A stretch of 64,000 nucleotides of DNA from Minisyncoccota bacterium (GTDB lineage: Bacteria; Patescibacteriota; Minisyncoccia; Phycocordibacterales; DATDWN01). The stretch covers positions 11,262 through 75,261 of the forward strand of contig DATDWN010000016.1 of NCBI GenBank assembly GCA_036517395.1, given 5' to 3'. Position 1 is the first letter of the stretch. Each line of letters opens with the position of its first letter. Both the position numbers and the translations under genes were made by a program. Shown here piece after piece: positions 5,014 to 63,489 of this stretch. Under the pieces are notes generated by a model that searched no databases, was not told where the DNA came from, and saw only the letters and a program-made list of their open reading frames with translations.

Positions 5014-5134
5014 TATTTAGTAGATCAAAAAATATTAAAATAATTGCTAGATAAATATTGACTTGTGTTTATATATATTGAGGAGTAACATATGAATACT
5101 TGATTATTAACAAATTACTAATAAAGATACACCT

Positions 5135-5635: not shown

Positions 5636-5641
5636 AAGATT

Positions 5642-6547: not shown

Positions 6548-6548
6548 T

Positions 6549-6941: not shown

Positions 6942-6945
6942 ATTT

Positions 6946-7410: not shown

Positions 7411-7413
7411 TTT

Positions 7414-11595: not shown

Positions 11596-11698
11596 TGAGC
11601 TGGATAGGACTCGAACCTATATCATGACCTTAGAATGGTCAGCCCTGGGGAGGGTATAGTTTTCAAGACTACTGTTCTATCCATTGAACTACCAGCCC
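11596..11698 (-). tRNA. atypical tRNA, anticodon UGA (Ser-like) with extra hairpin; ~103 nt
   Basis: Reverse complement folds: acceptor GGGCTGG/CCAGCTC, D-arm GTTC-AATGGATA-GAAC, anticodon arm GTAGT-CTTGAAA-ACTAT, variable hairpin CCCT-CCCC-AGGG, an additional TGACC-ATTCTAA-GGTCA hairpin, T-arm ATAGG-TTCGAGT-CCTAT. Confidence 0.55.
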
Positions 11699-20198: not shown

Positions 20199-20350
20199 TT
20201 TATCTGCGACGAGAGAGGAGCGCGTGAATGTGTAATCACATTCACAGCGTCCGAACGAGGAGTAGCAATGGTAAAAACCCCGCCCCTCTGGGGCGGAACA
20301 GGGGTCCAGGGCTTGCCCTGGGGTTTCATACCATTGATTAAAAACAATTG
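20199..20350. repeat. 140-bp structured repeat (family C), copy 1, between topA and dprA
   Basis: Near-identical to 42403-42540; hairpins GTGAATGTG-TAAT-CACATTCAC, GCCCC-TCTG-GGGGC, CCAGGGC-TT-GCCCTGG; carries the SD and mini-ORF. Confidence 0.8.
20267..20350 (+). CDS. 27-aa mini-ORF (MVKTPPLWGGTGVQGLPWGFIPLIKNN) inside the 140-bp repeat, perfect SD
   Basis: GAGGAG 5 nt upstream of the ATG. A second copy at 42471 differs by a synonymous CCC/CCA change. Confidence 0.4.
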
Positions 20351-21425: not shown

Positions 21426-21520
21426 AGCTTTATTATATTGGAAATTATAAATTAAGTCATTGAAAATTGACTGAAAATTGGAAATTGTAAATTGAAAATT
21501 CCAATAGTGTTTGGTACACT

Positions 21521-22810: not shown

Positions 22811-22888
22811 TTGTAATTTAGACTTTTTAATTTAGAATTTAAAAATTAAGTCTAAATTCTAAATTTTAAATTAAAAATTTACTACCTT
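22811..22888. repeat. AT-rich palindromic repeat (family D) 5' of the ftsQ-like gene
   Basis: AATTTAGACTTTTTAATTTAGAATTTAAAAATTAAGTCTAAATTCTAAATTTTAAATT; a similar copy lies at 23792-23875. Confidence 0.65.
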
Positions 22889-23791: not shown

Positions 23792-23875
23792 CAATTTAAA
23801 ATTTAGACTTTAAAATTTAAAAATTAACTATAAATTCTAAAGTCTAAATTTTAAATTTATAATGTTGAACTTCTC
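23792..23875. repeat. AT-rich palindromic repeat (family D) 3' of the ftsQ-like gene / 5' of dus
   Basis: Direct near-repeat of 22811-22888. Confidence 0.65.
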
Positions 23876-25299: not shown

Positions 25300-25440
25300 A
25301 TATCCGCACACTAACTTTGCTCTCGTTGCATTCAGTCTCAAAATATAGATGTATATCTTAGATTTAGATATAATTTCTAACTTTTGCTTGATTGTTAATG
25401 TGGCAACAGGGAGACAAGAGCAAAGTTAGTGTGCGGATAA
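25300..25440. repeat. family A MITE-like element, copy 1 (TIR TATCCGCACACTAACTTTGCTCT), abuts dnaX ATG
   Basis: Terminal inverted repeats; right end GTGTGCGGATAAATATG includes the dnaX start codon. Confidence 0.8.
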
Positions 25441-30312: not shown

Positions 30313-31440
30313 ATGAATGAGACCCGTACATATTATCGAAACAAAGTTGTTTCCAATTTGTACAGAAATCTTCTCAAACCAGTTTTTTTTCACAATGACC
30401 CGGAGTTTGTTCATGATTGCATGACAGGATTTGGTGCTTTTTTGGGTCGCTATACTTTGGGGCAGAGAATGACAAAAAGTTTTTTTGATTATGAAAATTC
30501 GGCTTTAATACAGGATGTGCTAGGTATTAGTTTCAGAAATCCCATTGGTCTCTCGGCGGGTTTTGATAAAAATGCAGAGCTTGTAGATATTTTGCCGTCT
30601 GTTGGGTTTGGTTTTGCTGAAATCGGCTCTATCACCGGAAACCCGTGTTTAGGAAATGCTAAACCTCGACTGTGGCGTTTGCCAAAATCCAAAAGTCTCC
30701 TCGTTTATTATGGTTTAAAAAATGACGGCTGTGTGGCTATCGCAGAAAAACTGCATGATAAGTTTTTTACCATCCCGATGGGCATGAGTATTGCCATGAC
30801 GAATTGCGAGGAGAATTTGGTTCTAGAAAATGCCATAAAAGATTACGCAAAAGCTTTTGCCACTATGGAGCCTTTTGGTAACTACATAACTATAAATATT
30901 AGTTGTCCGAATGCTCTCGGTGGTCAGCCCTTTATTGCTCCAGACAAACTTGAACACTTATTGGACACTTTAGACAAGATTCCTAGTCAAAAACCAATTT
31001 TTATTAAACTCTCCCCTGATCTCAGTAATGCAGAGTTAGACGCTCTTCTTGATGTTGCTCGTCGTCACAGGGTTCACGGTATTATTTGCACAAACTTGAG
31101 CAAAAAAAGAGACAATCCAAAAATCATCGACGCTGGTATACCTTCAAAGGGTGGTTTCAGTGGCAAAGTAGTTCAACAGCTTTCTGATGACATGCTCTCT
31201 TATATTTACAAAAAAGAGGGACAGAGATTTATTCTTGTTGGCTGTGGCGGAGTTTTCACGGCGGAAGATGCTTACAAAAAAATCCGGCTTGGAGCATCTC
31301 TTGTCCAGTTGATTACCGGAATGATTTTTGAAGGCCCACAGGTCATAAGCCAGATTAATCAAGGCCTTGCGGAACTGTTAAAACGAGATGGTTTTGCCAA
31401 TATTAAAGAGGCTGTTGGTGTGGATTCATCCACACACTAA
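30313..31440 (+). CDS. pyrD: dihydroorotate dehydrogenase (quinone, class 2)
   Basis: 'GLSAGFDKNAE', 'GFAEIGSIT', 'ITINISCPN', 'GCGGVFTAEDAYKKIRLGASLVQL'. The last 4 codons and stop lie in the MITE repeat. Confidence 0.9.
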   Translation: MNETRTYYRNKVVSNLYRNLLKPVFFHNDPEFVHDCMTGFGAFLGRYTLGQRMTKSFFDYENSALIQDVLGISFRNPIGLSAGFDKNAELVDILPSVGFGFAEIGSITGNPCLGNAKPRLWRLPKSKSLLVYYGLKNDGCVAIAEKLHDKFFTIPMGMSIAMTNCEENLVLENAIKDYAKAFATMEPFGNYITINISCPNALGGQPFIAPDKLEHLLDTLDKIPSQKPIFIKLSPDLSNAELDALLDVARRHRVHGIICTNLSKKRDNPKIIDAGIPSKGGFSGKVVQQLSDDMLSYIYKKEGQRFILVGCGGVFTAEDAYKKIRLGASLVQLITGMIFEGPQVISQINQGLAELLKRDGFANIKEAVGVDSSTH

Positions 31441-31500
31441 CTTTGGTATTGTGTATTTTCAAAACGTGGTGAAGTAATGTAAAAGTTAGTGTGTGGATAA
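31428..31500. repeat. family A element, copy 2 (short, ~73 bp)
   Basis: ATCCACACACTAA...TTAGTGTGTGGATAA; the left TIR provides the pyrD stop codon. Confidence 0.75.
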
Positions 31501-38173: not shown

Positions 38174-38713
38174 ATGGATGGAAAAAGAGGGAGCAGTTCT
38201 GTTCTCGTGTGGTCGGTTGTTGTGATTGTTGTAGTTGCAGGTGTTTATGGGATTTTTCGATATACACAAAAAAGCTCTAAAAGCGTAGCTCAAGTGCCAA
38301 TCGATACTTCCCTAGATACTGCTACACAGACTCCACCGATAGAAAATACAGCGACCCAAACTCTGCCAGTAGTTCCGCCTGTCACACCGCCAAAACCAAA
38401 ACCAACTACATTTGTATACAAAAATGCTACATACTCTGCCGACGGAAACTATTTCTCACCAGGAGGTTCAGAGCAGATTGCTGTTAGTGTTACTATAAAA
38501 GACGATGTTGTAACAGCTGCATCTGTAAATGCCAATGCTCCGTCTGGACCAACAGCAGCTAAATATCAAAGTATATTTGTAGATAATTTCAAGCAATATG
38601 TCGTTGGCAAGAAAATAGATGAGATAAATCTGACAAAAGTTTCCGGATCATCTCTCACTCCAAAGGGTTTTAATGATGCTTTAGCCAAAATAAAAGTTGA
38701 GGCCAAAGCCTAG
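38174..38713 (+). CDS. membrane-anchored FMN-binding domain protein
   Basis: 'YKNATYSADGNYFSPGGSEQIAVSVTIKDDVVTAASV' FMN_bind-like (Thr flavinylation context); N-terminal TM. Confidence 0.5.
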   Translation: MDGKRGSSSVLVWSVVVIVVVAGVYGIFRYTQKSSKSVAQVPIDTSLDTATQTPPIENTATQTLPVVPPVTPPKPKPTTFVYKNATYSADGNYFSPGGSEQIAVSVTIKDDVVTAASVNANAPSGPTAAKYQSIFVDNFKQYVVGKKIDEINLTKVSGSSLTPKGFNDALAKIKVEAKA

Positions 38714-38716
38714 GGT

Positions 38717-38804
38717 AATTTACAATTATCAATTTACAATTTCCAATCAATTCTCAATGTTCCAATGATTCAATTTGAAAATTGAGAACTGAAAATTGAA
38801 AATT
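38717..38804. repeat. ~88-bp AT-rich repeat (family D) abutting the apbE ATG
   Basis: ...CAATTCTCAATGTTCCAATGATTCAATTTGAAAATTGAGAACTGAAAATTGAAAATT-ATG; ~95% identical to 41342-41430. Confidence 0.75.
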
Positions 38805-39671
38805 ATGCAATTCGATGCTATTGGTACTCACTGGCAGATAGATATAAATGAAGAGGTGGAGGAGTCAAAAGTCCATAAAGTCAGAAAGTCTATAAAGGAG
38901 AGAATAGATATTTTTGACAAAGACTACTCGCGTTTTCGTGATGACTCGCTGGTGACGAAGATGTCACATGAGTCCGGTGGTTTTGTCTTGCCAAGTGATG
39001 CGGATAAAATGGTTTCTCTTTATAAAAAAATGTACGATATCACGGGTGGGCTTGTCACGCCTCTCATAGGTCAAGCCATATCAGACGCTGGATATGATGC
39101 AAAATATTCTCTCTCACCAAAACCTATGACCAAAGCACCCAAGTGGGAGGATGTTTTAATTTGGCATAACCCCAAACTTATGCTTTCAAAACCTGTCCTT
39201 CTTGATTTTGGTGCTTGTGGCAAGGGTTATCTAGTAGATATAGTTTCTGAAATATTAGAAGGTATTGGAATCAAATCCTACTGCGTTGATGCTGGGGGTG
39301 ACATGAGATGTAGAAGCGCAAAAGTTAAAAGTGAAAAGTTAAAAGTAGGGTTGGAGAATCCAAATAATAAAGAAGAGGTGATTGGTGTCATAAATCTAGG
39401 GAATCAAAGCTTATGTGGTTCCAGCGGCAACAGGAGGACGTGGGCAAATTTTCACCACATCATAAACCCAGAAACACTTACTTCACCTCGTGAAATTTCA
39501 GCTGTCTGGGTAGTGGCAGACGAAACTATCAAAGCCGACATCCTAACCACAGGACTTTTCTTTGTTTCTCCCGAAACTCTCTTAAAACATTTTGATTTTC
39601 AGTATCTTATTCTATATCCCGACTTTTCCATCAAAAAATCCGATGGATTTGATGCGAAAATATTTACGTAA
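38805..39671 (+). CDS. apbE: FAD:protein FMN transferase (ApbE family)
   Basis: 'FDKDYSRFRDDS', 'LDFGACGKGYLVD', 'DAGGDM' ApbE motifs; ATG at 38805 (the track start at 38796 is TTG). Confidence 0.75.
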   Translation: MQFDAIGTHWQIDINEEVEESKVHKVRKSIKERIDIFDKDYSRFRDDSLVTKMSHESGGFVLPSDADKMVSLYKKMYDITGGLVTPLIGQAISDAGYDAKYSLSPKPMTKAPKWEDVLIWHNPKLMLSKPVLLDFGACGKGYLVDIVSEILEGIGIKSYCVDAGGDMRCRSAKVKSEKLKVGLENPNNKEEVIGVINLGNQSLCGSSGNRRTWANFHHIINPETLTSPREISAVWVVADETIKADILTTGLFFVSPETLLKHFDFQYLILYPDFSIKKSDGFDAKIFT

Positions 39672-39715
39672 AAACAAACTGAAAGTGATACCAACAAAAT
39701 CTCCCCTCCTCATGT

Positions 39716-39850
39716 TTCGAGAAAGGCCTTTCGCAGGAGCTTAGAAAATAACGAGGTAATCCGAGATTATTTTCTTGAGCGACGAGAAGTTCGCTGGGCG
39801 AGCTCGCCCAGACAGATTGCCTTTCGAGGAATATGAGGAGGGGAGATTTT
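39716..39850. repeat. long palindromic element (family E): 19-bp perfect arms CAAAATCTCCCCTCCTCAT / ATGAGGAGGGGAGATTTTG around a ~100-bp structured core
   Basis: Seen directly; the core shares GAAAATAACGAGGTAATCCGAGATTATTTTC with 16330-16380. Confidence 0.6.
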
Positions 39851-39871
39851 GTACTGTGATATAATTTTCAT

Positions 39872-41341
39872 ATGAAATTCATGGATAACTTTCTCAATAA
39901 GATAACAATGTACAGGCTGGTTTTGTACGGTCTTTTTGTGCTAGCTGGATTGGCAATTATTTTCGGATTTACGGGAATACTCTCATACTCGGGCCTTAGC
40001 CTTATTTATTCTCTGCTCGTTATTATCGCAGTTTGTGGTGTGGCAAACTATATCTTGGCAAAACTCTTCAAAGTTCAAACAAACGTCGAGTCGGTCTGGA
40101 TTACATCTCTTATTTTATTTCTTATACTTTTTCCCATAGCATCTTGGACCGACTTCGGAACCTTTATTCTCGCCGGTGTCTTGGCAATGGGGTCAAAATA
40201 TATTCTGGCTATAAATAAAAAGCACATATTTAACCCCACAGCTATATCAGTTTTCATACTCGGGCTTTTTGGTTTCGGAATATCTTGGTGGGTAGGGAGC
40301 TCGGTTATGTTTATTCCGGTCGCTGTTCTCGGTTTGCTAGTCCTTCGTAAGATTCGCCGGTTTAGTTTATTTTTCTCATTTCTTTTGGCCAGTGTGGCAA
40401 GTATTTTTGCCGTAGGTTTTTCTCAAGGGATTGGATTTTATGAAATTCTCGGCTCGACACTTATATCAGGCCCAATTATTTTTTTCGGTACGATAATGCT
40501 GACCGAGCCATCGACTACTCCGCCAACAAGAAAGTTACAGATTGTGTACGGTTTGATAGTCGGCGGAATTTTCGGATTACAGTTCCATTTTGGACCAATA
40601 TACTCGTCGCCAGAGCTTGCTTTGATTCTCGGTAACTTGTTCTCATACTTTGTAAGTCCGAAAATTCGCTCGGTGTTGACACTAGTCAGAAAAGATAAAT
40701 TAACGGCAGATGTTTATGACTATGTTTGGCAACCAGACAGAAAGGTATCATTTAATGCGGGACAATATTTGGAGTGGACATTGGGACACTGGCCATCCGA
40801 CAGCAGGGGAAACAGGAGGTATTTTACTATTGCTTCATCTCCAACAGAGGAAAATATTCATCTAGGTGTAAAGTTTTATCCAAACGGGAGTAGTTTCAAA
40901 AATAAATTATCGCAACTTAACGCAGGGGATACTATCGTCGCCTCACAACTCTCTGGCGACTTTGTCCTGCCAGAAAACAAAAACCAAAAACTTGTTTTTA
41001 TTGCTGGGGGTATTGGTGTCACGCCTTTCCGAAGCATGGTCAAATATCTTGTTGATGCCAACGAAAAAAGAGATGTCGTACTTTTTTACTCAAACAGAAC
41101 TCCGGAAGATGTTGCCTACAAAGACCTGTTTGACTCGGCAGGGCAGAGTATAGGATTCAAAGTGATTTACGCTGGGCTGATAGATAAGAATATGATTATA
41201 AAAGAAGTGCCGGATTATACGCAAAGAAAGTTTTATATTTCCGGACCGCATGGCATGGTTGATGTTTTTGAAGGCGTTTTGAAGGATATTGGGGTGAAAA
41301 ATAGCAATATAAAAGTGGATTTCTTCCCGGGATATGTTTAG
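39872..41341 (+). CDS. membrane oxidoreductase: polytopic N-domain + C-terminal FNR-like FAD/NAD(P)-binding domain
   Basis: 8+ TM helices; 'RRYFTIASSP' (RxYS FAD motif) and 'GGIGVTPFRSM' (NAD-binding) motifs. Confidence 0.6.
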   Translation: MKFMDNFLNKITMYRLVLYGLFVLAGLAIIFGFTGILSYSGLSLIYSLLVIIAVCGVANYILAKLFKVQTNVESVWITSLILFLILFPIASWTDFGTFILAGVLAMGSKYILAINKKHIFNPTAISVFILGLFGFGISWWVGSSVMFIPVAVLGLLVLRKIRRFSLFFSFLLASVASIFAVGFSQGIGFYEILGSTLISGPIIFFGTIMLTEPSTTPPTRKLQIVYGLIVGGIFGLQFHFGPIYSSPELALILGNLFSYFVSPKIRSVLTLVRKDKLTADVYDYVWQPDRKVSFNAGQYLEWTLGHWPSDSRGNRRYFTIASSPTEENIHLGVKFYPNGSSFKNKLSQLNAGDTIVASQLSGDFVLPENKNQKLVFIAGGIGVTPFRSMVKYLVDANEKRDVVLFYSNRTPEDVAYKDLFDSAGQSIGFKVIYAGLIDKNMIIKEVPDYTQRKFYISGPHGMVDVFEGVLKDIGVKNSNIKVDFFPGYV

Positions 41342-41430
41342 GAATTTTCAATTATCAATTTACAATTTTCAATCAATTCTCAATGTTCCAATGATTCAAT
41401 TTGAAAATTGAGAACTGAAAATTGAAAATT
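41342..41430. repeat. ~88-bp AT-rich repeat (family D) abutting the msrA ATG
   Basis: Near-identical to 38717-38804. Confidence 0.75.
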
Positions 41431-41433
41431 ATC

Positions 41434-41982
41434 ATGCATACTAAAATAGAAACAGCAATCTTGGGTGGAGGTTGCTTCTGGTGTACGGAGGCAGTTTTTC
41501 AGATGTTGAAGAGCGTGAAATCTGTCGAGCCGGGTTATGCAGGTGGAAATGTATCAAACCCAATATATGAACAAGTTTGCGGGGGAAACACTGGTCATGT
41601 TGAGTGCATAAAAATAGAGTTTAACCCAGAAGAAATTTCATATCGAGATTTATTGACCGTCTTTTTTGGAAGCCATGATCCAACAACACTAAATATGCAG
41701 GGAAATGATATTGGCACTCAATACCGCTCTGTTATTTTTTATACAACGCCAAAGCAGAAAGAAACAGCCGAAAGTTTTATACAAGAATTAAATGACTCCA
41801 GCCCAGACGGTCGACCTATTGTCACAGCGGTTGAACCGCTGGAGAGTTTTTACGTTGCTGAAAACTATCACAAGGATTATTATGAGAGAAATAAAGAAGC
41901 CCCCTATTGCCAGGTCATTATCAATCCAAAATTAGAAAAAGTACAAAAACAATTTGCAAGTCTTTTAAAAACTAATAAATAG
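41434..41982 (+). CDS. msrA: peptide methionine sulfoxide reductase A
   Basis: 'GGGCFWCTEAVF' active site; ATG at 41434. Confidence 0.9.
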   Translation: MHTKIETAILGGGCFWCTEAVFQMLKSVKSVEPGYAGGNVSNPIYEQVCGGNTGHVECIKIEFNPEEISYRDLLTVFFGSHDPTTLNMQGNDIGTQYRSVIFYTTPKQKETAESFIQELNDSSPDGRPIVTAVEPLESFYVAENYHKDYYERNKEAPYCQVIINPKLEKVQKQFASLLKTNK

Positions 41983-42030
41983 AATAAAATCATTCCGACA
42001 TTCTCAAGAATGTCGGAATGATTTACTAAA

Positions 42031-42438
42031 ATGGATATGGATATAGACGAGGAAGAATTAAAAAATAAACTTACGCCAGAGGAGTATGCGGTTTTGAGAG
42101 AAAAGGGAACAGAAACTCCATTTAGCGGAAAGCTTTTACACGATGATAGAAATGGAATGTATAAATGCAAAGTCTGCGGCGCTTCACTTTTTTCATCCGA
42201 TGCCAAGTTTGATTCTGGTACCGGTTGGCCAAGTTTTGATCAGGCCATTCCCGGAAGTGTCAAAGAAGTGAAGGATGACACCCTCGGAATGAGTCGTATA
42301 GAAGTGGTTTGCGCAAAATGTAACTCTCATCTCGGTCACTTATTTGATGACGGTCCAACTAAAACTGGAAAAAGATATTGCTTGAACTCCGTCTGCCTTG
42401 ATTTATCTGCGACGAGAGAGGAGCGCGTGAATGTGTAA
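42031..42438 (+). CDS. msrB: peptide methionine sulfoxide reductase B
   Basis: 'CKVCGASLF', 'CAKCNSHLGHLFDDGP', 'RYCLNS'. The last ~10 codons extend into the 140-bp repeat. Confidence 0.9.
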   Translation: MDMDIDEEELKNKLTPEEYAVLREKGTETPFSGKLLHDDRNGMYKCKVCGASLFSSDAKFDSGTGWPSFDQAIPGSVKEVKDDTLGMSRIEVVCAKCNSHLGHLFDDGPTKTGKRYCLNSVCLDLSATREERVNV

Positions 42439-42590
42439 TCACATTCACAGCGTCCGAACGAGGAGTAACAATGGTAAAAACCCCGCCCCTCTGGGGCGGA
42501 ACAGGGGTCCAGGGCTTGCCATGGGGTTTCATACCATTGATCCGCACACTAATTCTGCCATGGTCCTGTTTTGAAATAATCCTAAAATAA
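42403..42590. repeat. 140-bp structured repeat (family C), copy 2, after msrB; mini-ORF 42471-42590
   Basis: Two substitutions versus copy 1; the one inside the mini-ORF is synonymous (CCC to CCA). Confidence 0.8.
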
Positions 42591-42677
42591 ATATCCATAA
42601 AATTTATTACAGTATATTGTTACAAATTCTGAAATTTAGTCAGGACAAAAAACAATGGCAGATTTAGTGTGCGGATG
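42541..42677. repeat. family A element, copy 3
   Basis: TCCGCACACTAATTCTGCCATGGTCCTG ... CAGGACAAAAAACAATGGCAGATTTAGTGTGCGGATG. Confidence 0.8.
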
Positions 42678-43262: not shown

Positions 43263-43401
43263 TTATCCGCACACTAAATATGCCATCGTCCTGTTTTTAA
43301 ATAATATAAAAATAAATATCTTCTAATTTATCACAGTATATTGTTACAAATTATAAAACTAAGTCAGGACAAAAAACAATGGCAGAATTAGTGTTCGGAT
43401 G
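43263..43401. repeat. family A element, copy 4 (same orientation as copy 3, ~85% identical)
   Basis: TTATCCGCACACTAAATATGCCATCGTCCTG ... GGCAGAATTAGTGTTCGGATG. Confidence 0.8.
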
Positions 43402-48373: not shown

Positions 48374-48450
48374 AACCCGCACACTAAAATTGGCATCGTC
48401 GGGATTACCGACAGTACAAAACATAATGCCAATATTAGTGTGCGGGTAAA
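48374..48450. repeat. family A element, copy 5 (short) in the xseA-xseB junction
   Basis: AACCCGCACACTAAAATTGGCAT...ATGCCAATATTAGTGTGCGGGTAAAC. Confidence 0.75.
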
Positions 48451-49428: not shown

Positions 49429-49571
49429 TTTATCCGCACACTAACTTCTGTCTCGTTACCTGTGCAATGTATTAAAAGTTTATATAATTCTATTCCGCTA
49501 ATAATTATTATACCATGACAAATCTATAACAGGTAACAAAATGCACAAGATAGAAGTTAGTGTGCGGACAG
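49429..49571. repeat. family A element, copy 6, abuts LOG start (minus strand)
   Basis: Reverse complement of the left end reads GTGTGCGGATAAATTATG, which is the LOG start. Confidence 0.8.
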
Positions 49572-49603: not shown

Positions 49604-50353
49604 TTACAACCCAACACTTTTCAAAAATACATTCAACTCCTCTCCAACTATTTCTCGGTAAGTGTTTTGAGCGATTTTTCCCAGTTCTATATTTTGAACA
49701 CGAACTCTTCGAAGATCTCGAACAGTGTACCCAAGCTTCTCGGTCATTCTTCTCAACTGGCGATTCTTGCCTTCAGTTAGCACAATGCTGAAAAAATTTT
49801 CCGACAGCTTTTTCACTATTGCCGGTTTAGTCACCCCATCTCCAATGTTCACCCCATCTTGCATGTGTTTCAGAAATGCCGGTGTAAATTTTCTATCAAC
49901 TTCTACAATATATTCTTTCTCATGATCATGCGCGGGGTTGAGAAGTCGGTCGGTTATCCTACCGTCGTTTGTCATAATCAATAGCCCGTAAGACTCCTTG
50001 TCCAGTCTCCCAACAGGGAACACCCCTGCGGGGAACTTTGCGCTCTGCATTATTCCTTTCTCTTTTTCTTGAGGGTTTGTACTGACTACCCCTCTCGGTT
50101 TGTTGTAGGCCAGATAAATGAGCTTCTTTTTTGTATGCACTCCTCTGATTTCCACATTGTCGCTTTCCATAACTTTATCACCGAGGATTGCCACTCGTCC
50201 GTTTATTAGAACCTTCTTACTTTTTATAAGCTCATCCACTCCCGTGCGAGTGGCTACGCCTTTGTGGGCGAGGTATTTATTTATCCGCACACCAACTCTG
50301 GCATCGCTTTTTGTGTTCTGGCTTAGTTTTGTAGCGTATTTTTTATTTTTCAT
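49604..50353 (-). CDS. rluB: rRNA pseudouridine synthase (RsuA/RluB family, S4 + catalytic domain)
   Basis: S4 'RINKYLAHKGVATRTGVDELI', catalytic 'PVGRLDKESYGLLIMTNDG'. The N-terminal ~24 codons lie inside a MITE copy, so the true start is uncertain. Confidence 0.8.
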   Translation of the reverse strand: MKNKKYATKLSQNTKSDARVGVRINKYLAHKGVATRTGVDELIKSKKVLINGRVAILGDKVMESDNVEIRGVHTKKKLIYLAYNKPRGVVSTNPQEKEKGIMQSAKFPAGVFPVGRLDKESYGLLIMTNDGRITDRLLNPAHDHEKEYIVEVDRKFTPAFLKHMQDGVNIGDGVTKPAIVKKLSENFFSIVLTEGKNRQLRRMTEKLGYTVRDLRRVRVQNIELGKIAQNTYREIVGEELNVFLKSVGL

Positions 50354-50424
50354 AAATTGATTTCAAGGGATAATTTTAGTTAAAAAGCAGAACAATGCTA
50401 GAGTTGGTGTGCGGGTTTATCCTC
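50281..50424. repeat. family A element, copy 7, contains the rluB 5' end
   Basis: TTATCCGCACACCAACTCTGGCATCGC ... GCTAGAGTTGGTGTGCGGGTTTATCC. Confidence 0.75.
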
Positions 50425-50443: not shown

Positions 50444-50577
50444 TTACCCACACACTAAATCTGCCATTGTTTTGTCCTGGTTCTGTCTATAATCTGCTAT
50501 TATACATTATAGTAGATTTGTAAGTGTTGTATAATATTATAAAAAAAGGACGATGGCAGAATTAGTGTGTGGGTTTA
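50444..50577. repeat. family A element, copy 8 (tandem with copy 7, upstream of the FKBP gene)
   Basis: TTTACCCACACACTAAATCTGCCATTGTTTTGTCCTGG ... GACGATGGCAGAATTAGTGTGTGGGTTTAC. Confidence 0.75.
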
Positions 50578-51622: not shown

Positions 51623-52909
51623 GTGAAATCTTTTTCTTTTGATATACATTCTGAACTTCCAAATTCTCTCGGACGAGTTGGTACAATACACACTCCACAT
51701 GGTGACATACAAACACCGGCATTTGTCGCAGTTGGAACAAAAGGCACGGTAAAAAGTTTGACGCCGGAACAGGTCGCAGATACTGGCACACAAGTCATAA
51801 TCGCAAATACATATCATTTATATTTAGAGCCCGGAGACGAAAAGATAAAAAATATTGGAGGGTTGCACAAAGCGATGAACTGGTCTGATCCTCTTATGAC
51901 CGACTCTGGCGGCTTCCAAGTTTTTTCTCTAGGTGTCGCATATGGCAAAAAGATTAGCAAAGTTTCAAAAAAAGATGAACTAATACTATCCAAGCCTCTC
52001 CCTATGTCCGACATAGGGAGATTTGCGGAAACAAGACTTCAACAAGATGAGGCAGTACCAAAGATTGCTCGAATTGATTCCAATGGGGTAATGTTCCGCG
52101 ATCATATATCGGGCAGCGCTCACTATTTTACTCCGGAAAAATCGATAGAGATTCAGCACAATCTCGGCGCAGATATTATTTTTGCCTTTGACGAATGCAC
52201 CTCACCTCATGAGTCGCTTCATTATCAGAAAGAAGCGCTTGAGAGAACTCACCGCTGGGCTCGACGTTCTCTTGAACATCATTCCGACATTCTCAAGAAT
52301 GTCGGAATGAATGGCCCTGCGATTTTTGGCATTGTGCAGGGCGGGCGAGATGAAACCTTGCGTAAAGAAAGTGCAAAATATATGGCAGATTTAAGGGCCG
52401 GAGGTCCTGAACGAAGCGAAGGATTCGACGGTTTCGGAATAGGCGGATCATTTGAAAAAGAAGATATGAGCAAGGCAGTAGAATGGTGCAATCAGATTTT
52501 GCCAAGAGAGAAGCCAAGGCATCTGCTTGGTATCGGCGAGCCAACCGATTTATTTATGGCGGTTGAGTTCGGGTGTGATTTGTTTGACTGTGTTTCACCC
52601 ACTCGTATCGCTCGAAACGGCGGAGTTTATACAAAAGAAGGAAGAGTCAATTTACTGAATCAAGAATTTCGAGAAGATTCAAAACCTCTCGACCAAGGTT
52701 GTCTCTGCTACACATGCAAAAACTTTTCGTGCGCTTATGTTGCACATCTCTTTCATGCAAAAGAAATTTTGGCTTATACGCTGGCATCAATACACAACCT
52801 TTATTTTATAACTCACATGGTGGATGGTATGCGCGAGACTATGCAAAGCGGGGATTTTGAAAGCTACAAAAAAGATTTTTTAAGTAAATACTACAGGACT
52901 AATTTGTGA
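51623..52909 (+). CDS. tgt: queuine tRNA-ribosyltransferase
   Basis: 'LMTDSGGFQVFSL', 'DCVSPTRIARNGG', Zn site 'CLCYTCKNF...H'; carries a 30-bp palindromic segment at 52290-52319. Confidence 0.9.
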   Translation: MKSFSFDIHSELPNSLGRVGTIHTPHGDIQTPAFVAVGTKGTVKSLTPEQVADTGTQVIIANTYHLYLEPGDEKIKNIGGLHKAMNWSDPLMTDSGGFQVFSLGVAYGKKISKVSKKDELILSKPLPMSDIGRFAETRLQQDEAVPKIARIDSNGVMFRDHISGSAHYFTPEKSIEIQHNLGADIIFAFDECTSPHESLHYQKEALERTHRWARRSLEHHSDILKNVGMNGPAIFGIVQGGRDETLRKESAKYMADLRAGGPERSEGFDGFGIGGSFEKEDMSKAVEWCNQILPREKPRHLLGIGEPTDLFMAVEFGCDLFDCVSPTRIARNGGVYTKEGRVNLLNQEFREDSKPLDQGCLCYTCKNFSCAYVAHLFHAKEILAYTLASIHNLYFITHMVDGMRETMQSGDFESYKKDFLSKYYRTNL

Positions 52910-55252: not shown

Positions 55253-55394
55253 GCATGTCCGCACACCAACTTTGGCATTGTCTCTTTGTTGCTAGGTTAG
55301 GAATTACATCAAATTTTAGATGTATATCTATATATGGATGTATGTATAAACTCTGAGACAGGGCAATGATGCCAAAGTTGGTGTGCGGATAAAT
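55253..55394. repeat. family A element, copy 9, abuts uvrA ATG
   Basis: CATGTCCGCACACCAACTTTGGCATTGTCTC ... GATGCCAAAGTTGGTGTGCGGATAAATATG. Confidence 0.8.
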
Positions 55395-58270: not shown

Positions 58271-59668
58271 ATGAATAATCGAAATATTAAAAAAGTAATA
58301 TCTAAATTCCCGGATTCTCCTGGGGTGTATATTTTCCTTGGCTCGCCGAAACGTAGTGGAGGCGGCAAGTCCAAAAGTGAAATTCTTTACATAGGCAAAG
58401 CCACATCCCTCCGTGACCGAGTTAGAACTTACATGTCAAGGACAGTCCTTGACACTCGAAGTCCACTCATAGCTAAGATGCTGGAGGAGTTTGAAGATAT
58501 CGAATACATAAAAACAGATTCTGTTTTGGAAGCACTTGTTTTGGAAGCCAATCTCATAAAAAAACACCAGCCGGAAGCAAATATAAAAGAAAAAGATAAT
58601 AAAAGTTTTAACTTTGTTGTGATTACCAAAGAAGATTTTCCTCGTGTTTTAGTTATCCGCGGTCGTGAACTGCTGCAATCGCGCATTATGTCAAGGACGC
58701 CCCTTGCCAAAAATTCAAAAATGGCAAAGGGCGTCTTTGACATTAAAAATCAGTTCGGTCCATTTCCAAACGGCGGACAGCTGAAGGAAGCACTGAAAAT
58801 AATTCGCAAGATGTTTCCGTATCGGGATAAGTGTAATTCTGCGGAAGTCCGACTTCCGCAGAAAACGTATTCAGGGAAGCGACCGAGCGGGAACGATGGG
58901 AGTACTGAGGCCAACAGGCCGAATGTAGCCTGTTTTAATCGTCAGATAGGTTTGTGTCCAGGAGTTTGTACAGGAGAAATTACAAAAGAGGATTATCAGA
59001 AACAAATCCAAAATATTATTTTGTTTTTTCGGGGTAATAAAAAGCGATTGCTGAAAAACCTTGAGAAACAAATGCGAGGTTTCGCAAAAAATCGAGAGTT
59101 TGAGAAAGCCGGCGAAGCTAAAAAAACAATTTTTCTTCTAAAACATATTCAGGATATATCGCTTATAAAAGAAGATTGCAAAGGTTCGACCTTAAAGAAT
59201 GGTGCCCAAGGTCGAACCTTGGATTCAGAGACATTCCGAATCGAATCTTATGATGTCGCACACATGTCTGGACAAAATGTTGTTGGGGTTATGATTGTTG
59301 TCGAGGATGGTGAAGTGAAGAAGTCTGATTATAGGAAGTTCAAAATAAAAAACAATCCAAGTGTAAACGATACTAAAGCCTTGACAGAAGTACTGTCGAG
59401 AAGGTTGGCACATATAGAATGGCGATTTCCTGATTTGATTGTTGTCGATGGAGGGACGGCGCAAAAGAGAGTGATGGAAAAGATTTTGCGGGAGAATAAA
59501 GTGAATATTCCCGTTGTTTCTGTTGTCAAAGATGAGAGACATAAACCGAAGAATATACTAGGTGACAGACAGTGGTTAAAATATGAGAGAGAAATAATTC
59601 TAGCAAACAGCGAATCACATAGATTTGCTATTGGATATCATAGAAAGCTCAGAGGGAAGTTTGGATAA
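58271..59668 (+). CDS. uvrC: excinuclease ABC subunit C (short form, lacks C-terminal HhH)
   Basis: GIY-YIG 'GVYIF...ILYIGKATSLRDRV', UvrBC-binding 'LLKNLEKQMRGFAKNREFEKAGEAKK', RNaseH-like endonuclease domain. ATG at 58271 preferred over the track start. Confidence 0.85.
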   Translation: MNNRNIKKVISKFPDSPGVYIFLGSPKRSGGGKSKSEILYIGKATSLRDRVRTYMSRTVLDTRSPLIAKMLEEFEDIEYIKTDSVLEALVLEANLIKKHQPEANIKEKDNKSFNFVVITKEDFPRVLVIRGRELLQSRIMSRTPLAKNSKMAKGVFDIKNQFGPFPNGGQLKEALKIIRKMFPYRDKCNSAEVRLPQKTYSGKRPSGNDGSTEANRPNVACFNRQIGLCPGVCTGEITKEDYQKQIQNIILFFRGNKKRLLKNLEKQMRGFAKNREFEKAGEAKKTIFLLKHIQDISLIKEDCKGSTLKNGAQGRTLDSETFRIESYDVAHMSGQNVVGVMIVVEDGEVKKSDYRKFKIKNNPSVNDTKALTEVLSRRLAHIEWRFPDLIVVDGGTAQKRVMEKILRENKVNIPVVSVVKDERHKPKNILGDRQWLKYEREIILANSESHRFAIGYHRKLRGKFG

Positions 59669-59771
59669 TTTCAAATTTCAAAATCCAAATTTCCAATCAG
59701 TATCAAAGAATCAAATGTCAAAGTTTTGGATTTCGATATTTGGATTTGGTTTGACATTGGAAGTTTAGGTT

Positions 59772-60770
59772 TTGATATTATACAATATATCTATGCCAAC
59801 TCTTTCTCCATCACTTCACATAGGCGTACTTCGTGGGGGACCGTCGTCGGAGTATGATGTCTCACTAAAAAGTGGTGCTAATGTCCTACGGCATCTTTCG
59901 GAAACTCACAGGCCGCTGGATATTTTTATTTCTCGTGATGGCAAATGGCATATAGCGGGTGTGGAGAGATCACCGGAAAGAATTTTGCAAAATGTCGATG
60001 TTGTTTTCAATGCTTTGCACGGTGCCTATGGTGAGGATGGTGGAGTACAGGAAGTTCTCGGCTACCTCGGCGTTCCGTATACCGGCTCCGGGCGGTATGA
60101 GTCCGCTATCGCCATGAATAAATGGATGACAAAGGAAAGGGCGACGGCGGCCGGAATAAAAACACCAGTTTTTGCCATTGTGAGAGAGACTGACAATTTG
60201 GCGCAAAAAGCCAAAGAGATTTTCAACTCCATACCGCATCCGCTCATAGTTAAACCAGCATGTGGAGGCTCGTCCCTAGGGCTTTATAAAGTGTCCTCCT
60301 ATAGCGAACTCTTGTCCGCTCTGGAAAGTGTCTTGTCTGAGCATGGTTCGGCGATCGTGGAGGAGTGTATTATTGGTAAAGAAGCTACATGTGGTGTTAT
60401 AAATAATTTTCGTGAGCGAGATGTGTATGCACTACCTCCTATCGAGATTATTCCGCCAAAAGGCAAACTGTTTGACTATGATTCAAAATATAATGGAGAG
60501 AGTAGGGAAATCTGCCCTGGGAATTTTAGTCAATTGGAGAAAAAAGAAATAGAAAGATTATCGGCTCTCATTCACCAAACTCTGGGCTTATCGCATTATT
60601 CTCGATCAGATTTTATTGTTTCACCACGTCGTGGGATTTATTTTCTGGAGGTCAATACTCTTCCCAGATTAACTCCAGAGTCTCTTCTACCAAAGTCTCT
60701 CAAAGCTATTGGTTCTAGTGTTCAGGAGTTTTTGCATCATGTTATCGGCCTTGCATTAAATAAAAAATAG
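59772..60770 (+). CDS. ddl: D-alanine--D-alanine ligase
   Basis: 'GVLRGGPSSEYDVSLKSG', ATP-grasp 'VKPACGGSSLGL', 'EVNTLP'. Confidence 0.85.
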   Translation: MILYNISMPTLSPSLHIGVLRGGPSSEYDVSLKSGANVLRHLSETHRPLDIFISRDGKWHIAGVERSPERILQNVDVVFNALHGAYGEDGGVQEVLGYLGVPYTGSGRYESAIAMNKWMTKERATAAGIKTPVFAIVRETDNLAQKAKEIFNSIPHPLIVKPACGGSSLGLYKVSSYSELLSALESVLSEHGSAIVEECIIGKEATCGVINNFRERDVYALPPIEIIPPKGKLFDYDSKYNGESREICPGNFSQLEKKEIERLSALIHQTLGLSHYSRSDFIVSPRRGIYFLEVNTLPRLTPESLLPKSLKAIGSSVQEFLHHVIGLALNKK

Positions 60771-61203: not shown

Positions 61204-63489
61204 ATGGCATTCACTTCAGTATATAAAATAAATGGCATGCACTGCGCTTCGTGCGCTGGTATCATAGAAAAGATTTTTAGAAAAACAGATGGTGTCGTGT
61301 CAGTAGATGTGAATTATGGAACTGAGAGCGCCAGACTGTCATTTGATAACACAAAAACTAATCCGGCAGAACTTTCAAGGCAAATCGAAAAACTTGGCTA
61401 CTCCTTGGTTTTGCCCAACAAAGAATCAAAACGGGAAAAATTATCTGAATTGAAATCTATGCGAAACAAGGTTTTTTCCGCTATGCCTCTGGCTGTTATA
61501 AGCGTTGTTATCATGGGTTGGGATATTTTTTCTAGGTTTGGTCTTGTTCCAGAGATGTCATATTTTTGGCAAAACATTTTTCAATATCTGCTTCCACTGA
61601 TGGCCATCGCTACATTTGTTATCCTCGGTAAACCATATTTGCTCGGAGTATATCGTTTTCTACGTTATGGCAGGGCGAACATGGACACGCTCATAGGCAT
61701 AGGCACATCCGTCGCTTTTCTCTACAGTTCTGTCGTCACGGTTTTTGGAGAAAGTCTAAAAGCATTTATAAATACTCAAAGCACATATTTTGATGTTACC
61801 ATTATCGTTATTACTTTCATTGCTCTTGGAAAGTATCTTGAGGCACGGTCAAAATTGAAAACAGGAGATGCTATAGAAAAACTTTTGAACCTTCAAGCCA
61901 AAACAGCGCTAGTGGTCCGTGATGGCAAAGAAATTGAAATCTCAGTTGACCAAGTGGTGCATGGTGATTTGATTGTGGTAAAACCTGGGAGCGCTATTCC
62001 TGTTGATGGTATTTTGACCAAAGGGTCTTCGTATATAGATGAATCAATGATTACAGGTGAGCCGATGCCAGTGGCTAAAAAAGTTGGTGATGCTGTGGTT
62101 TCTGGCACGATAAATACGACGGGTTCATTTATTTTTGAAGCTACAAAAATCGGTTCGGAAACTATACTGTCTCGAATTATAAAAATGGTAGAAGAGGCGC
62201 AAGGGAGCAAGGCGCCTATCCAAGCACTGGCTGATAAAATCTCTAGTATTTTTGTGCCGGTGGTTTTAGTTTTGTCTTTTGTGGCTCTGGGATTGTGGCT
62301 TGTTATTGGCACGCAGTATCTCGGTTTTTCTCAAGCACTCTCTTTCGGTCTGGTTTCTTTTGTCGGTATTCTCGTCATCGCCTGTCCATGCGCATTGGGA
62401 CTTGCAACTCCCACGGCTATTATTGTCGGTGTTGGTAAGGGAGCAAGAGAAGGTATACTAATAAAAGATGCGGGGACTCTAGAAAAACTTGGCAAAGTAA
62501 ATGTGGTTGTGGTGGACAAGACGGGAACGCTAACACGAGGAAAACCCGAACTTGTCTCTATTAAAAATTTTTCTAACAAAAAAGACGCAGAATTAATTTC
62601 AATCCTTGCTTCACTTGAAAATAAATCAGAACACCCCATCGCTCACGCAGTTGTCTCTTATGCAATTGAAAATAAAATCGGTTTAACTGCTCTGGATACT
62701 TTTGAGGCGATTAAAGGCAAGGGTGTCAAAGGGGTTGTTGAAAATACGGAATATTATGCGGGCAACACTAAACTTGTAAAAGATCTCAGACTTCATTTTG
62801 ATAGCACGGGGAATGAGAAAGAAACGCTAGAAGGGAAAACTCCTGTTATTTTGACAACAAAAGAAAAAGTTCTCGGGGTTTTTATGATAGCAGATAGCAT
62901 TAAACCGGAGGCTGTAGAAGCGGTAAAAAATCTGCATAAACTGGGCATAAAAGTTGTCATGCTTACTGGGGATGATAGAAATACTGCCACATTTATTGCA
63001 AGGCAGGTTGATATAGACGAAGTTGTTGCGGAGGTCATGCCAGAGGACAAACTTAGGATAATAAAGGAATTACAGGAAGGAAGATTTGAAAATTGGAAAT
63101 TGGAAATTGGAAATTCCAACCGAAGGTTGGTGGTGGCCATGGCTGGGGATGGAGTGAACGATGCACCAGCTCTGGCACAGGCCGATGTCGGTATTGCTAT
63201 GGCTACGGGGACAGATGTGGCTATTGAGAGCGCCGGCATTACTCTGCTTCATGGTGATATTTCTAAACTAGTCAAGGCTATAAATCTGTCAAAAATAACA
63301 ATGCGAGGCATAAGACAAAATCTGTTCTGGGCTTTCTTTTACAATATTATTGGTATCCCACTTGCTGGTGGCTTGTTTTATCCAATTTTTGGCTGGATGC
63401 TCTCACCCGTGTTTGCTGGGTTTGCCATGGCCATGTCTAGCGTCTCGGTGGTTAGCAATTCATTAAGGTTAAAAACTAAAAAATTATAA
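61204..63489 (+). CDS. copA: copper-translocating P-type ATPase
   Basis: N-terminal HMA 'GMHCASCAG', 'CPC' ([11 protein letters not shown]), 'DKTGTLT', '[10 protein letters not shown]'. Contains an in-frame (GAAATTG)n insertion at 63088-63117. Confidence 0.9.

What the first reader, a model, noticed from the sequence alone, without database searches (positions are those of the whole stretch)
38717..41430. Near-identical 88-bp AT-rich modules ending exactly at the start codons of apbE and msrA (portable promoter/leader?)
...CAATTCTCAATGTTCCAATGATTCAATTTGAAAATTGAGAACTGAAAATTGAAAATT-ATG occurs twice at ~95% identity and brackets the apbE-oxidoreductase pair. Related GAAAATTG-rich units precede serS (21426-21520) and ddl (59640-59770) and flank the ftsQ-like gene. 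They contain TTGA(A/C)-type -35-like hexamers and internal inverted repeats.
Basis: seen in the sequence. Interest (0 to 1): 0.5.

Follow-up and report, generated by a model that had tools for sequence, protein, structure and literature searches.

The report
Heptamer-built palindromic repeat element between genes
The two near-identical 88-bp AT-rich modules are copies of a small, dispersed, hairpin-forming repeat element (MITE-like, arms made of 7-nt units) that was inserted into the tiny gaps between genes of a groundwater candidate-phyla-radiation bacterium; they are very probably not promoters.

Summary
Positions 38717-38804 and 41343-41430 are 98% identical, and identity stops at the module edges. 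Each copy fills the gap from a TAG stop codon to the next ATG.

The promoter reading is not supported for these two copies. Each module is an imperfect palindrome with two ~31-nt terminal inverted repeats built from about four 7-nt units. The two arms are distinct and conserved. Arm A is AATTTTCAATTATCAATTTACAATTTTC. Arm B is GAAAATTGAAAACTGAAAATTGAAAATT.

- **Insertion:** the closest relatives (72-73% ApbE identity) have 2-3 nt at the same junction.
- **Third copy:** it lies 3.5 kb beyond the window, between divergent genes that keep their own -10 boxes outside it.
- **Other genomes:** about 25 further copies occur in other metagenome contigs, in both orientations relative to genes, twice inside 23S rRNA genes.
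- **Inside a gene:** a solo arm forms a 42-nt in-frame insertion in a copper ATPase at 63081-63122.
- **Host promoters:** -10 boxes sit 6 nt before the ATG (leaderless type). apbE and msrA lack one.

Best reading: a MITE-like dispersed repeat, co-transcribed and tolerated because its hairpin loops the insert out. No transposase or target duplication was found. The conserved arm asymmetry hints at an unknown binding protein.

The parts
38717..38804 (.). Module copy 1 (88 nt). A arm 38717-38747, centre 38748-38774, B arm 38775-38804. It fills the spacer between the TAG stop of the FMN_bind-like gene (38711-38713) and the apbE ATG (38805-38807).
   Evidence: (D11).
41343..41430 (.). Module copy 2 (88 nt, 86/88 identical to copy 1). 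A arm 41343-41373, B arm 41401-41430. It lies between the TAG stop of the RnfD/FAD-NAD oxidoreductase (41339-41341) and the msrA ATG (41434-41436).
21437..21506 (+). Solo, one-directional array of B-type arm units (GGAAATT ATAAATT ... GAAAATT GGAAATT GTAAATT GAAAATT). It lies between the divergent dprA and serS genes, each of which has its own -10 box outside the array. The last TTGAAA sits 17 nt upstream of the serS -10 (TACACT; ATG at 21527).
   Evidence: D7; no hairpin, z -1.35.
63081..63122 (+). Arm-like heptamer array (TTGAAAA TTGGAAA x3 TTCCAA) forming a 42-nt (6 x 7) in-frame insertion. It adds 14 residues ([14 protein letters not shown]) just before the GDGVND motif of a CopA-type P-type ATPase.
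   Evidence: HMM hit 63086-63115; Pfam; gap against 3rfu.
22811..22885 (.). Related-architecture palindrome (units AATTTAG/AATTTAA) filling the serS stop to FtsQ-like start spacer. Its sequence belongs to a different family.
   Evidence: (D1, I1).
23792..23865 (.). Partner palindrome of the same AATTTAA/AATTTAG family, immediately after the FtsQ-like stop codon. It forms a long, near-perfect hairpin.
   Evidence: -20.9 kcal/mol, z -6.6; antisense z -9.1.
59663..59775 (.). Third type of period-7 palindrome (AATTTCA / TTGGATT units), between the uvrC stop and the ddl leaderless promoter (TACAAT, ATG at 59793).
   Evidence: (-34.7 kcal/mol, z -4.3).

Best explanation
The two modules are paralogous copies of a small, non-coding, palindromic dispersed repeat of the MITE/REPIN/Correia kind. 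The host is a Parcubacteria-type (candidate phyla radiation) bacterium.

**Anatomy (shown).** The element is 60-140 nt long and ends in AATTT...AAATT. It carries two ~31-nt terminal inverted repeats, each made of about four 7-nt units. The two arms are distinct and conserved:
- A arm: AATTTTCAATTATCAATTTACAATTTTC
- B arm: GAAAATTGAAAACTGAAAATTGAAAATT

The centre between the arms is variable.

**History (shown).** It was inserted into the originally 2-3-nt stop/start junctions of a compact gene cluster: FMN_bind protein, ApbE, oxidoreductase, then the methionine sulfoxide reductase genes (msrA in the window, msrB in both genomes).

**Mode of action (inferred).**
- It is co-transcribed as the intercistronic spacer.
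- On the RNA it folds into a weak A/U-rich hairpin that starts within about 3 nt of the stop codon and ends within about 3 nt of the start codon.
- The insert is thereby looped out. The ancestral stop-start proximity, and with it translational coupling, is preserved.
- A ribosome terminating upstream would melt the base of the stem and expose the start codon.
- This is why such insertions survive in junctions, in rRNA helices and, as in-frame arm arrays, in proteins.

**Not established.** How copying happens is unknown (no transposase or target-site duplication was found). The element is not a promoter for apbE or msrA.
For: **Copy number and edges**
- Sharp-edged 98% copies.
- A third copy in the same genome at L214 15792-15898 has arms identical to copy 2 but a different centre.
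- The terminal inverted repeats are complementary at 28 of 31 positions, and a family alignment of 21 modules from different contigs shows conserved ends.

**Census**
- The arm HMM finds 30 arm pairings in 25 sequences; a few are overlapping calls or duplicate contigs, so about 25 distinct modules.
- Most fill the stop/start spacer of co-directional genes, with gaps of 10 nt or less on both sides.
- The TAA stop sometimes overlaps the element's first AA.

**Orientation**
- The polarity is independent of gene direction: about 10 against 7. Both polarities occur between + strand genes within L187.

**Empty sites**
- L210 reads TAATTCATG and L211 reads TAATCATG at the FMN_bind/apbE junction. The later junctions measure 16-17 nt and 37 nt.
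- More distant relatives have spacers of about 10-45 nt, except L010 and L011, which carry a different palindromic insert.

**Insertion into other contexts**
- Inside 23S rRNA genes in L170 and L174.
- As a 42-nt in-frame insertion in the copper ATPase.

**Distribution**
- Patchy. Six arm hits in the 64-kb window against significant hits in 3 of 80 loci across 1.19 Mb of other, mostly candidate-phyla-radiation, genomes.
- Subfamilies are lineage-specific: E4/E5/E7 form one group, L123/L176/L187a/L190 another.

**Co-transcription**
- In SD-using (Shine-Dalgarno, ribosome-binding site) genomes the module is followed by an SD (AAGGAG in L108, GAAAGGAG in L043). It therefore lies upstream of a ribosome-binding site inside a transcribed spacer.

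**Assembly**
- Short-read contigs break inside the module.
Against: - No transposase, RAYT (the transposase that mobilises REP elements) or other mobilising gene was seen in the window or its flanks.
- No autonomous element with these ends was found.
- No unambiguous target-site duplication exists: the ends are the palindrome AATT and the flanks vary.
- No filled/empty polymorphism was found among strains of the same species; all 18 and 13 contigs carry the modules.
- At one orthologous site in two diverged genomes (L123 and L176) the module is 96% identical while the flanking coding sequence is only 76% and 66% identical. This indicates constraint, repeated insertion or homogenisation rather than neutral junk.
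- A module's own arms are no more complementary to each other than to the arms of other modules: 19.2 against 19.9 of 28 positions.
- Three arm mismatches, at positions 12, 16 and 20, are conserved. Simple selection for a stable hairpin does not explain the sequence.
- There is no sense-strand folding advantage: 9 of 23.
- Co-transcription, looping-out and coupling are inferences. No RNA data were available.
Confidence: 0.6

Rival explanations
1. **Host-selected binding or processing site.** The hairpin, with its two distinct arms and three conserved mismatches, is a specific recognition site for a conserved protein. Candidates are an RNase III-like processing enzyme, a nucleoid protein or regulator reading 7-nt units, or a hairpin-specific recombinase. 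The module would be kept at junctions because it regulates or processes the polycistronic RNA. Copying would be secondary.
For: - The module is 96% conserved at an orthologous site whose flanks are 66-76% identical.
- The A arm was not part of the search pattern, yet it is conserved. It has A at position 16 in 14/14 modules, at position 12 in 11/14 and at position 20 in 12/14. No module has two B arms.
- The arms are more conserved than the centre within one genome.
- The hairpin arms reach about 28-31 pairing positions (about 20-24 paired), long enough in principle for RNase III.
- Copies inside 23S rRNA resemble intervening sequences that RNase III excises (the RNase III link is from general knowledge).
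Against: - The polarity relative to transcription is random.
- The family is patchy among related genomes.
- The closest relatives run the same gene cluster without it.
- Copies occur in very different contexts: a divergent promoter region, rRNA and coding sequence.
- No candidate protein was identified.
Confidence: 0.2
2. **Portable promoter or hybrid-promoter donor.** The B arm's TTGAAA hexamers act as -35 elements, and its A/T-rich tracts as UP elements, driving the downstream gene.
For: - TTGAAA-17-GAAAAT and TTGAGA-16-TATCAT matches lie inside the modules.
- At serS and ddl the element's last TTGAAA or TTGGAA lies 17-18 nt upstream of a flank-encoded -10 box that sits 6 nt before the ATG.
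- At the third copy the module occupies the -25 or -49 and further-upstream region of two divergent promoters.
Against: - For apbE and msrA the predicted start sites fall after the ATG, and no -10 box sits at the leaderless position.
- Promoter-like matches in the region are not above shuffle expectation: 23 against 17.2 +/- 4.6.
- The module occurs in both polarities.
- The junction is 2-3 nt in relatives.
- SD-using genomes place an SD after the module.
Confidence: 0.1
3. **In-situ growth.** Each element arose locally by replication slippage of 7-nt units plus inverted duplication, without any copying between sites. The similarity between copies would reflect a shared mutational bias.
For: - Period-7 arrays of many different units occur in this window: 39320-39346, 22811, 23792 and 59663.
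- They also occur inside coding genes of another candidate-phyla-radiation genome (L044 14579-17728).
- Arms differ by whole units: L187a has one more CAATTTC unit than L190.
- Heptamers are reported as the commonest long simple repeats in prokaryotes (Mrazek 2007, as cited in PMC4679880).
Against: - The arms are not uniform repeats. They are ordered series of different units (AATTTTC AATTATC AATTTAC AATTTTC), conserved across genomes and across the three copies here.
- The 98% identity extends through the non-periodic centre.
- The copies have sharp common edges.
Confidence: 0.07

Closest known systems
Correia / nemis elements of Neisseria (MITEs)
   Same: Both are about 100-150-bp, AT-rich elements with ~26-nt terminal inverted repeats. 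Both are dispersed next to genes, inserted in either orientation and co-transcribed. Correia elements fold into hairpins that RNase III can cut, and their ends can contribute promoter hexamers (general knowledge).
   Different: The arms here are built from 7-nt units, and the two ends are distinct. No TA target duplication or IHF site is evident. The host phylum is different. RNase III cleavage and promoter activity were not tested.
REP / REPIN elements mobilised by RAYT transposases
   Same: Both are short palindromic units forming larger hairpins. Both sit in intergenic spacers inside operons just after stop codons, in many near-identical copies per genome.
   Different: There is no GTAG/CTAC-type conserved head. 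No RAYT (Y1 transposase) gene was seen in about 84 kb. The arms are AT-rich heptamer arrays rather than GC-rich stems.
Rickettsia palindromic elements (RPE)
   Same: Both are palindromic repeats found in intergenic DNA, inside RNA genes, and in frame inside protein-coding genes, where they add a peptide loop.
   Different: Only a solo arm (42 nt) is seen in frame here, not the whole element. The sequence and the host are unrelated.
Heptanucleotide tandem repeats: TAACTGA repeats of Beggiatoaceae, Cyanobacteria and Bacteroidetes (PMC4679880) and cyanobacterial STRR / long simple sequence repeats
   Same: Both are 7-nt units sitting within a few nucleotides upstream of start codons in genomes that mostly lack Shine-Dalgarno sequences, and occasionally in frame in ORFs. 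The B arm contains AACTGA, and TAACTGA exactly in L153 and L174.
   Different: Those are direct arrays of one identical unit with a strong forward orientation. Here two inverted arrays of non-identical units form a defined palindrome with fixed ends, in either orientation.
23S rRNA intervening sequences
   Same: Both are AT-rich extended hairpins inserted in 23S rRNA helices (L170, L174).
   Different: Here the same element also populates mRNA junctions. Excision was not tested.

Membership tests
MITE (miniature inverted-repeat transposable element) | Terminal inverted repeats | tested here: met
   A arm against the reverse complement of the B arm matches at 28 of 31 positions. The ends are conserved in 21 aligned modules.
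MITE | Small, non-coding, multi-copy and dispersed within one genome | tested here: met
   Modules are 88-107 nt. There are three full copies plus two solo arms in about 84 kb of this genome.
MITE | Filled versus empty sites | tested here: met
   Empty 2-3-nt junctions in L210 and L211, whose ApbE is 72-73% identical. No polymorphism was seen among conspecific contigs.
MITE | Target-site duplication | tested here: inconclusive
   The ends are the palindrome AATT, and the flanks share no further repeat.
MITE | Cognate autonomous element or transposase with the same ends | tested here: not met
   None found in the window, its 20 kb of extensions, or the held loci. The gene flanked by palindromes at 22889-23791 is FtsQ-like (POTRA_1), not a transposase. 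The whole genome was not searched.
REPIN / RAYT system | Conserved REP head tetranucleotide and a RAYT gene flanked by REPs | tested here: not met
   The ends are AATTT. No Y1 transposase domain appears in the Pfam annotation of about 84 kb.
Sigma-70 promoter serving the adjacent gene | -35 and -10 hexamers with 16-18-nt spacing, placed so that transcription starts at or before the start codon | tested here: not met
   The matches end at 38803, 41429 and 41435, so predicted starts fall after the ATGs at 38805 and 41434. No TAnnnT ends at -6 to -8. Transcription starts were not measured.
Intrinsic terminator | GC-rich stem followed by a U tract | tested here: not met
   The terminator scan lists no site in either module. 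The stems are almost purely A/T.
Integron attC site | R''/R' core sites (RYYYAAC / GTTRRRY) and a nearby integron integrase | tested here: not met
   No core sites in the sequence. The flanking genes are housekeeping genes with no tyrosine recombinase next to them.
TIGR array (Tas-associated guide RNA array; PMC12045711) | Tandem units with box C/D motifs and dual spacers next to a Nop-domain tas gene | tested here: not met
   The modules are dispersed singletons between housekeeping genes, and no Nop-domain protein appears in the Pfam lists.
Any Rfam RNA family | Covariance-model match | tested here: not met
   Only miRNA-model noise at E 0.1-0.7, far below the gathering scores.

The most novel reading that the evidence does not exclude
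The element could be the recognition substrate of an undescribed system in candidate-phyla-radiation bacteria. In this reading, a protein reads ordered 7-nt units and a hairpin with three fixed mismatches (arm positions 12, 16 and 20). It would either mobilise the element through a structure-specific, transposase-unlike route, or process and couple the RNAs of SD-less, largely leaderless genomes. The same protein or mechanism might also drive the unusual spread of period-7 arrays into coding genes and rRNA.
Probability: 0.15. Interest if true: 0.75.

Novelty: new variant of a known kind. Interest (0 to 1): 0.45.

Why it matters
- **Annotation.** These AT-rich blocks should be treated as repeat elements, not promoters. 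They break short-read assemblies, and they can mislead start-codon calling, because TTG codons inside the B arm are in frame with apbE and msrA.
- **Genome biology.** Streamlined candidate-phyla-radiation genomes are usually described as poor in mobile DNA. This one carries several families of palindromic inserts at operon junctions. One family is shared across many groundwater, sediment and other environmental metagenome contigs and also enters rRNA and proteins.
- **Open questions made testable.** The fixed two-arm asymmetry and the cross-species conservation give a concrete handle for finding the factor that copies or reads the element. They also offer a way to ask how internal cistrons are translated in genomes with almost no Shine-Dalgarno sequences.
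- **Structural consequence.** The two 88-bp direct repeats bracket apbE and the oxidoreductase, so they are a potential substrate for recombinational loss or amplification. No such variant was seen.

Tried and rejected
1. **Rfam.** Scans at the gathering threshold and at E<=1 found nothing real.
2. **Intrinsic terminator or attC site.** The sequence features are absent.
3. **TIGR-Tas array.** This lead came from a literature search. It was rejected because the modules are singletons, have no box C/D organisation, and no tas gene is nearby.
4. **A transposase between the two palindromes that flank 22889-23791.** The protein is FtsQ-like, with a POTRA_1 domain.
5. **RNA-level selection through G-U asymmetry.** The sense strand folds better in only 9 of 23 modules.
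6. **Compensatory covariation between the arms of a module.** None was found: 19.2 against 19.9 matches.
7. **Directional bias of solo (TTGAAAA)n arrays toward gene starts across 85 metagenome sites.** The bias is weak, 17 against 11.
8. **Phage carriage.** 0 and 1 hits in viral contigs.
9. **Deletion or amplification variants between the two copies.** None in 13 contigs.
10. **Literature.** Searches for the motif strings, for MITEs in the candidate phyla radiation, and for heptamer repeats in Patescibacteria found no prior description. The nearest paper is PMC4679880.
11. **A look-up for the UvrC-like protein.** It failed because my start-codon call was wrong.
12. **My first impression that most genes are leaderless.** This was overstated. 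The count gives 14 of 58 genes.
Full report
**1. The observation**

The window contains a 90-nt direct repeat, 38717-38806 and 41343-41432, at 98% identity (D11). Its 28-nt right end occurs exactly twice, where shuffles give none. Identity stops at the module edges.

Copy 1 lies between the TAG stop of a 179-aa FMN_bind-like protein (38711-38713) and the apbE ATG (38805). Copy 2 lies between the TAG stop of a 489-aa RnfD-like/FAD-NAD oxidoreductase (41339-41341) and the msrA ATG (41434), with 3 extra bases.

Both copies are imperfect palindromes whose arms have period 7. They fold at -19.6 and -21.3 kcal/mol, z about -2.4 to -2.9.

- Only the serS-upstream array (21437-21500) belongs to the same sequence family, and it is a one-directional arm array, not a hairpin.
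- The palindromes around the FtsQ-like gene (22811-22885, 23792-23865) and before ddl (59663-59775) share the period-7 AT-rich palindrome design but have other unit sequences.
- GAAAATTG as a bare 8-mer is not enriched.

**2. The organism and its expression signals**

Identical ApbE is encoded on 18 metagenome contigs that are at least 99.97% identical to the window. Some short contigs break inside the module.

The nearest genome representatives are Minisyncoccia/Parcubacteria-group MAGs, at no more than 62% identity for the oxidoreductase. ApbE relatives reach at most 73% identity.

Shine-Dalgarno-like motifs precede only 5 of 58 genes. A TAnnnT box ends exactly 7 nt before the ATG in 10 genes, against a background of about 2 per position, and 14 of 58 genes have one at -6 to -8. 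This is the signature of leaderless mRNAs (an inference from sequence). The oxidoreductase gene has such a box (TATAAT-tttcat-ATG) here and in all inspected relatives. apbE and msrA do not.

**3. The modules are insertions**

The FMN_bind / apbE / oxidoreductase trio is conserved in many relatives. Junctions are typically about 10-45 nt, apart from L010 and L011, which carry a different palindromic insert.

In the two closest available relatives the junction before apbE is TAATTCATG (L210) and TAATCATG (L211). The apbE-to-oxidoreductase junction is 16-17 nt, and the next junction in L210 is 37 nt.

The window has 91, 200 and 92 nt at these three junctions. The first and third spacers are the modules. 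The second is a different, very stable hairpin.

**4. A family with fixed ends**

*Two kinds of hit.*
- Many hits are solo (TTGAAAA)n arrays in contigs of 26-59% GC.
- A low-GC subset has the full architecture of the window module. Alignment of 21 such modules gives the family consensus: AATTTTCAATTAYCAATTTACAATTTYCAATGA, then a variable centre, then ATTGAAAATTGARAACTGAAAATTGAAAATT.

*Census.* An arm HMM finds 30 arm pairings in 25 sequences, about 25 distinct modules once overlapping calls and duplicate contigs are removed. Nearly all sit between adjacent co-directional genes, with gaps of 10 nt or less to the stop and start codons. In several cases the TAA stop overlaps the element's first AA.

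*Other contexts and distribution.*
- In genomes that do use an SD, the SD follows the module (L108, L043).
- Polarity relative to gene direction is about even. L187 carries both polarities between + strand genes.
- Two modules lie inside 23S rRNA genes.
- In the window, an arm-like array forms a 42-nt in-frame insertion (14 aa) in a CopA-type ATPase.
- A third full copy in the same genome lies 3.5 kb beyond the window's right end (L214 15792-15898). Its arms are identical to copy 2, and its centre is different and longer. It sits between divergent yceG and flavodoxin-like genes, which keep their own TGnTATAAT-type boxes 6 nt before their ATGs, outside the module.
- Among 1.19 Mb from 80 other, mostly candidate-phyla-radiation, genomes only three loci have significant arm hits.
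- Viral contigs have essentially none.

**5. What the sequence constraints say**

The sense strand does not fold better than the antisense strand (9 of 23 modules). A module's arms are not more complementary to each other than to the arms of other modules (19.2 against 19.9 of 28).

Instead there are two arm types that differ at positions 12, 16 and 20. The A arm, which was not part of the search pattern, carries A at those positions in 11, 14 and 12 of 14 modules. No module has two B arms.

At one orthologous site in two diverged genomes (L123 and L176) the module is 96% identical, while the flanking coding DNA is 76% and 66% identical.

The ends are therefore under sequence constraint beyond base pairing. 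This is expected if a protein recognises them, whether as transposon ends or as a structured binding site. I could not identify that protein. No transposase was found in about 84 kb, and no clear target duplication exists.

**6. Promoter question**

Sigma-70-like matches in the modules would start transcription after the ATGs. Promoter-like matches in the region are not above shuffle expectation.

Combined with sections 2 to 4, the promoter reading fails for apbE and msrA.

At serS and ddl, by contrast, the last TTGAAA or TTGGAA of the neighbouring heptamer element lies 17-18 nt upstream of a flank-encoded -10 box. Donation of a -35 element is conceivable at those sites. This is inference only.

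**7. Most likely mechanism**

*Shown:*
- It is a dispersed, sharp-edged palindromic repeat.
- It is inserted at former 2-3-nt junctions.
- Its orientation is independent of gene direction.
- It is also present in rRNA and in coding sequence.
- Its distribution is lineage-patchy.

*Inferred:*
- It is co-transcribed.
- The A/U hairpin begins about 1-3 nt after the stop codon and ends 0-3 nt before the start codon. Folding therefore loops the insert out and restores stop-start proximity.
- A terminating ribosome would open the stem base and expose the start codon.
- The same looping-out logic explains why the element is tolerated in rRNA helices.

*Unknown:* how the element is copied. Slippage of 7-nt units probably adjusts arm length (L187a against L190).

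**8. Comparison with known systems**

- In behaviour it resembles Correia/nemis elements, REPINs, ERIC and RPE.
- In unit length and start-codon proximity it resembles the TAACTGA and cyanobacterial heptamer repeats (PMC4679880).
- It meets the structural MITE criteria but lacks a demonstrated target duplication and a cognate transposase.
- It fails the tests for a RAYT system, attC site, TIGR array, terminator and any Rfam family.

I found no prior description.

**Caveats**

- Gene calls are my own longest-ORF calls, supplemented by the gene calls and Pfam hits that came with the fetched contigs.
- The taxonomy of the metagenome contigs was not checked.
- The B arm's conservation is partly due to the search pattern used to find the family.
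- No expression data exist.

**Verdict**

The element is a new, heptamer-built variant of the small palindromic dispersed repeats, not a promoter cassette. Interest is moderate (0.45). It would rise if the conserved two-arm asymmetry turns out to mark a new recognition or mobilisation system.

Noticed in passing
window 25302-25438, 31428-31498, 42540-42676, 43265-43400, 48375-48447, 49432-49569, 50283-50416, 50446-50574, 55257-55390: A second, denser repeat family. There are nine inverted pairs of ATCCGCACACTAA ... TTAGTGTGCGGAT, 58-124 nt apart (18 matches against 1.07 expected). Several end right at start codons (...GTGCGGATAAATATG). It could be another MITE-like family or a shared regulatory or uptake-type motif.
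   Followed up: partly
window 39694-39852 (spacer 39672-39871); L213 about 2900-3100: A very stable structured element between apbE and the oxidoreductase: -92 kcal/mol, z -9.9, with 34-nt outer arms. A recognisably homologous insert (GGCCTTTCGYAGGARCTTAGAAAATAAC...) sits at the same junction in a 72%-identical relative. It has no Rfam match, and the oxidoreductase's own -10 box follows it.
   Followed up: partly
window 39320-39346: A period-7 repeat (AAAAGTT x 3.9) inside apbE encodes SAKVKSEKLKV. It falls in a loop after CVDAGGDMR that is hypervariable in length and sequence among ApbE orthologues (19 to 41 residues in P0001-P0007).
   Followed up: partly
L044 14579-17728 (also L046, L043 16977-17017): Another candidate-phyla-radiation MAG carries five different 7-nt tandem arrays of 4-5 copies each (AATTTTT, ATTCTGA, ATTTTGA, GGAAATT, AAAAGTC, plus CTCTCAC). 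Most lie inside coding genes (a 235-aa ORF, a UvrD-like helicase and a 351-aa ORF). This suggests a strong heptamer-expansion process in some of these lineages.
   Followed up: partly
L186 5631-5654, L191 2856-2879, L095 782-805, L130 1744-1767, L193 2005-2028, and many human-gut contigs (e.g. L090, L102): Solo (TTGAAAA/CTGAAAA)n arrays fill stop-to-start spacers in contigs of 41-57% GC that are clearly not the window's organism. The same 24-nt string recurs far more often than chance across very different bacteria.
   Followed up: partly
window-wide; e.g. 33863, 36397, 39872, 50609, 52922, 60939: The genome almost lacks Shine-Dalgarno motifs (5 of 58 genes). It shows a sharp peak of TAnnnT boxes ending 7 nt before the ATG (10 genes), the signature of leaderless transcripts.
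   Followed up: partly
window 20199-20338 and 42402-42541: A 140-nt direct repeat at 99% identity. One copy lies upstream of topA; the other overlaps the msrB 3' end and includes a GC-rich terminator-like hairpin.
   Followed up: no
window 4607-4729: A full-length match to the LOOT RNA family (RF03000): 71.8 bits against a gathering score of 46.4.
   Followed up: no
window 654-2486, 715-786, 11596-11698; L215 21091-21833: A large serine recombinase (Resolvase + Recombinase domains) overlaps or abuts tRNA-Trp. A 103-nt tRNA match at 11596-11698, seen by Rfam but not by ARAGORN, may contain an intron. A second serine recombinase lies about 9 kb to the left of the window. This suggests an integrated element at the window's left end.
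   Followed up: no
window 41990-42022 and 52278-52310; 18922-18944, 24711-24733, 58433-58455: Two further small palindrome families. One is a 33-nt terminator-like palindrome present twice (94%). The other is ATGTCAAGGACAGTCCTTGACAC, present three times.
   Followed up: no
window 5134-7483: Four paralogous gene starts share a 71-nt zinc-ribbon-type N-terminal coding segment (ATGT(T/A)(T/C)TG..AA..TGTGG...TGTGG) at 70-72% identity.
   Followed up: no
L010 7681-7851 and L011 8837-9120: In two other relatives the FMN_bind/apbE junction carries a different, GC-richer palindromic insert (AATCTGG...CGA ... TCGACTCAGATT). The same operon junctions are therefore recurrent landing sites for unrelated hairpin elements.
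   Followed up: no
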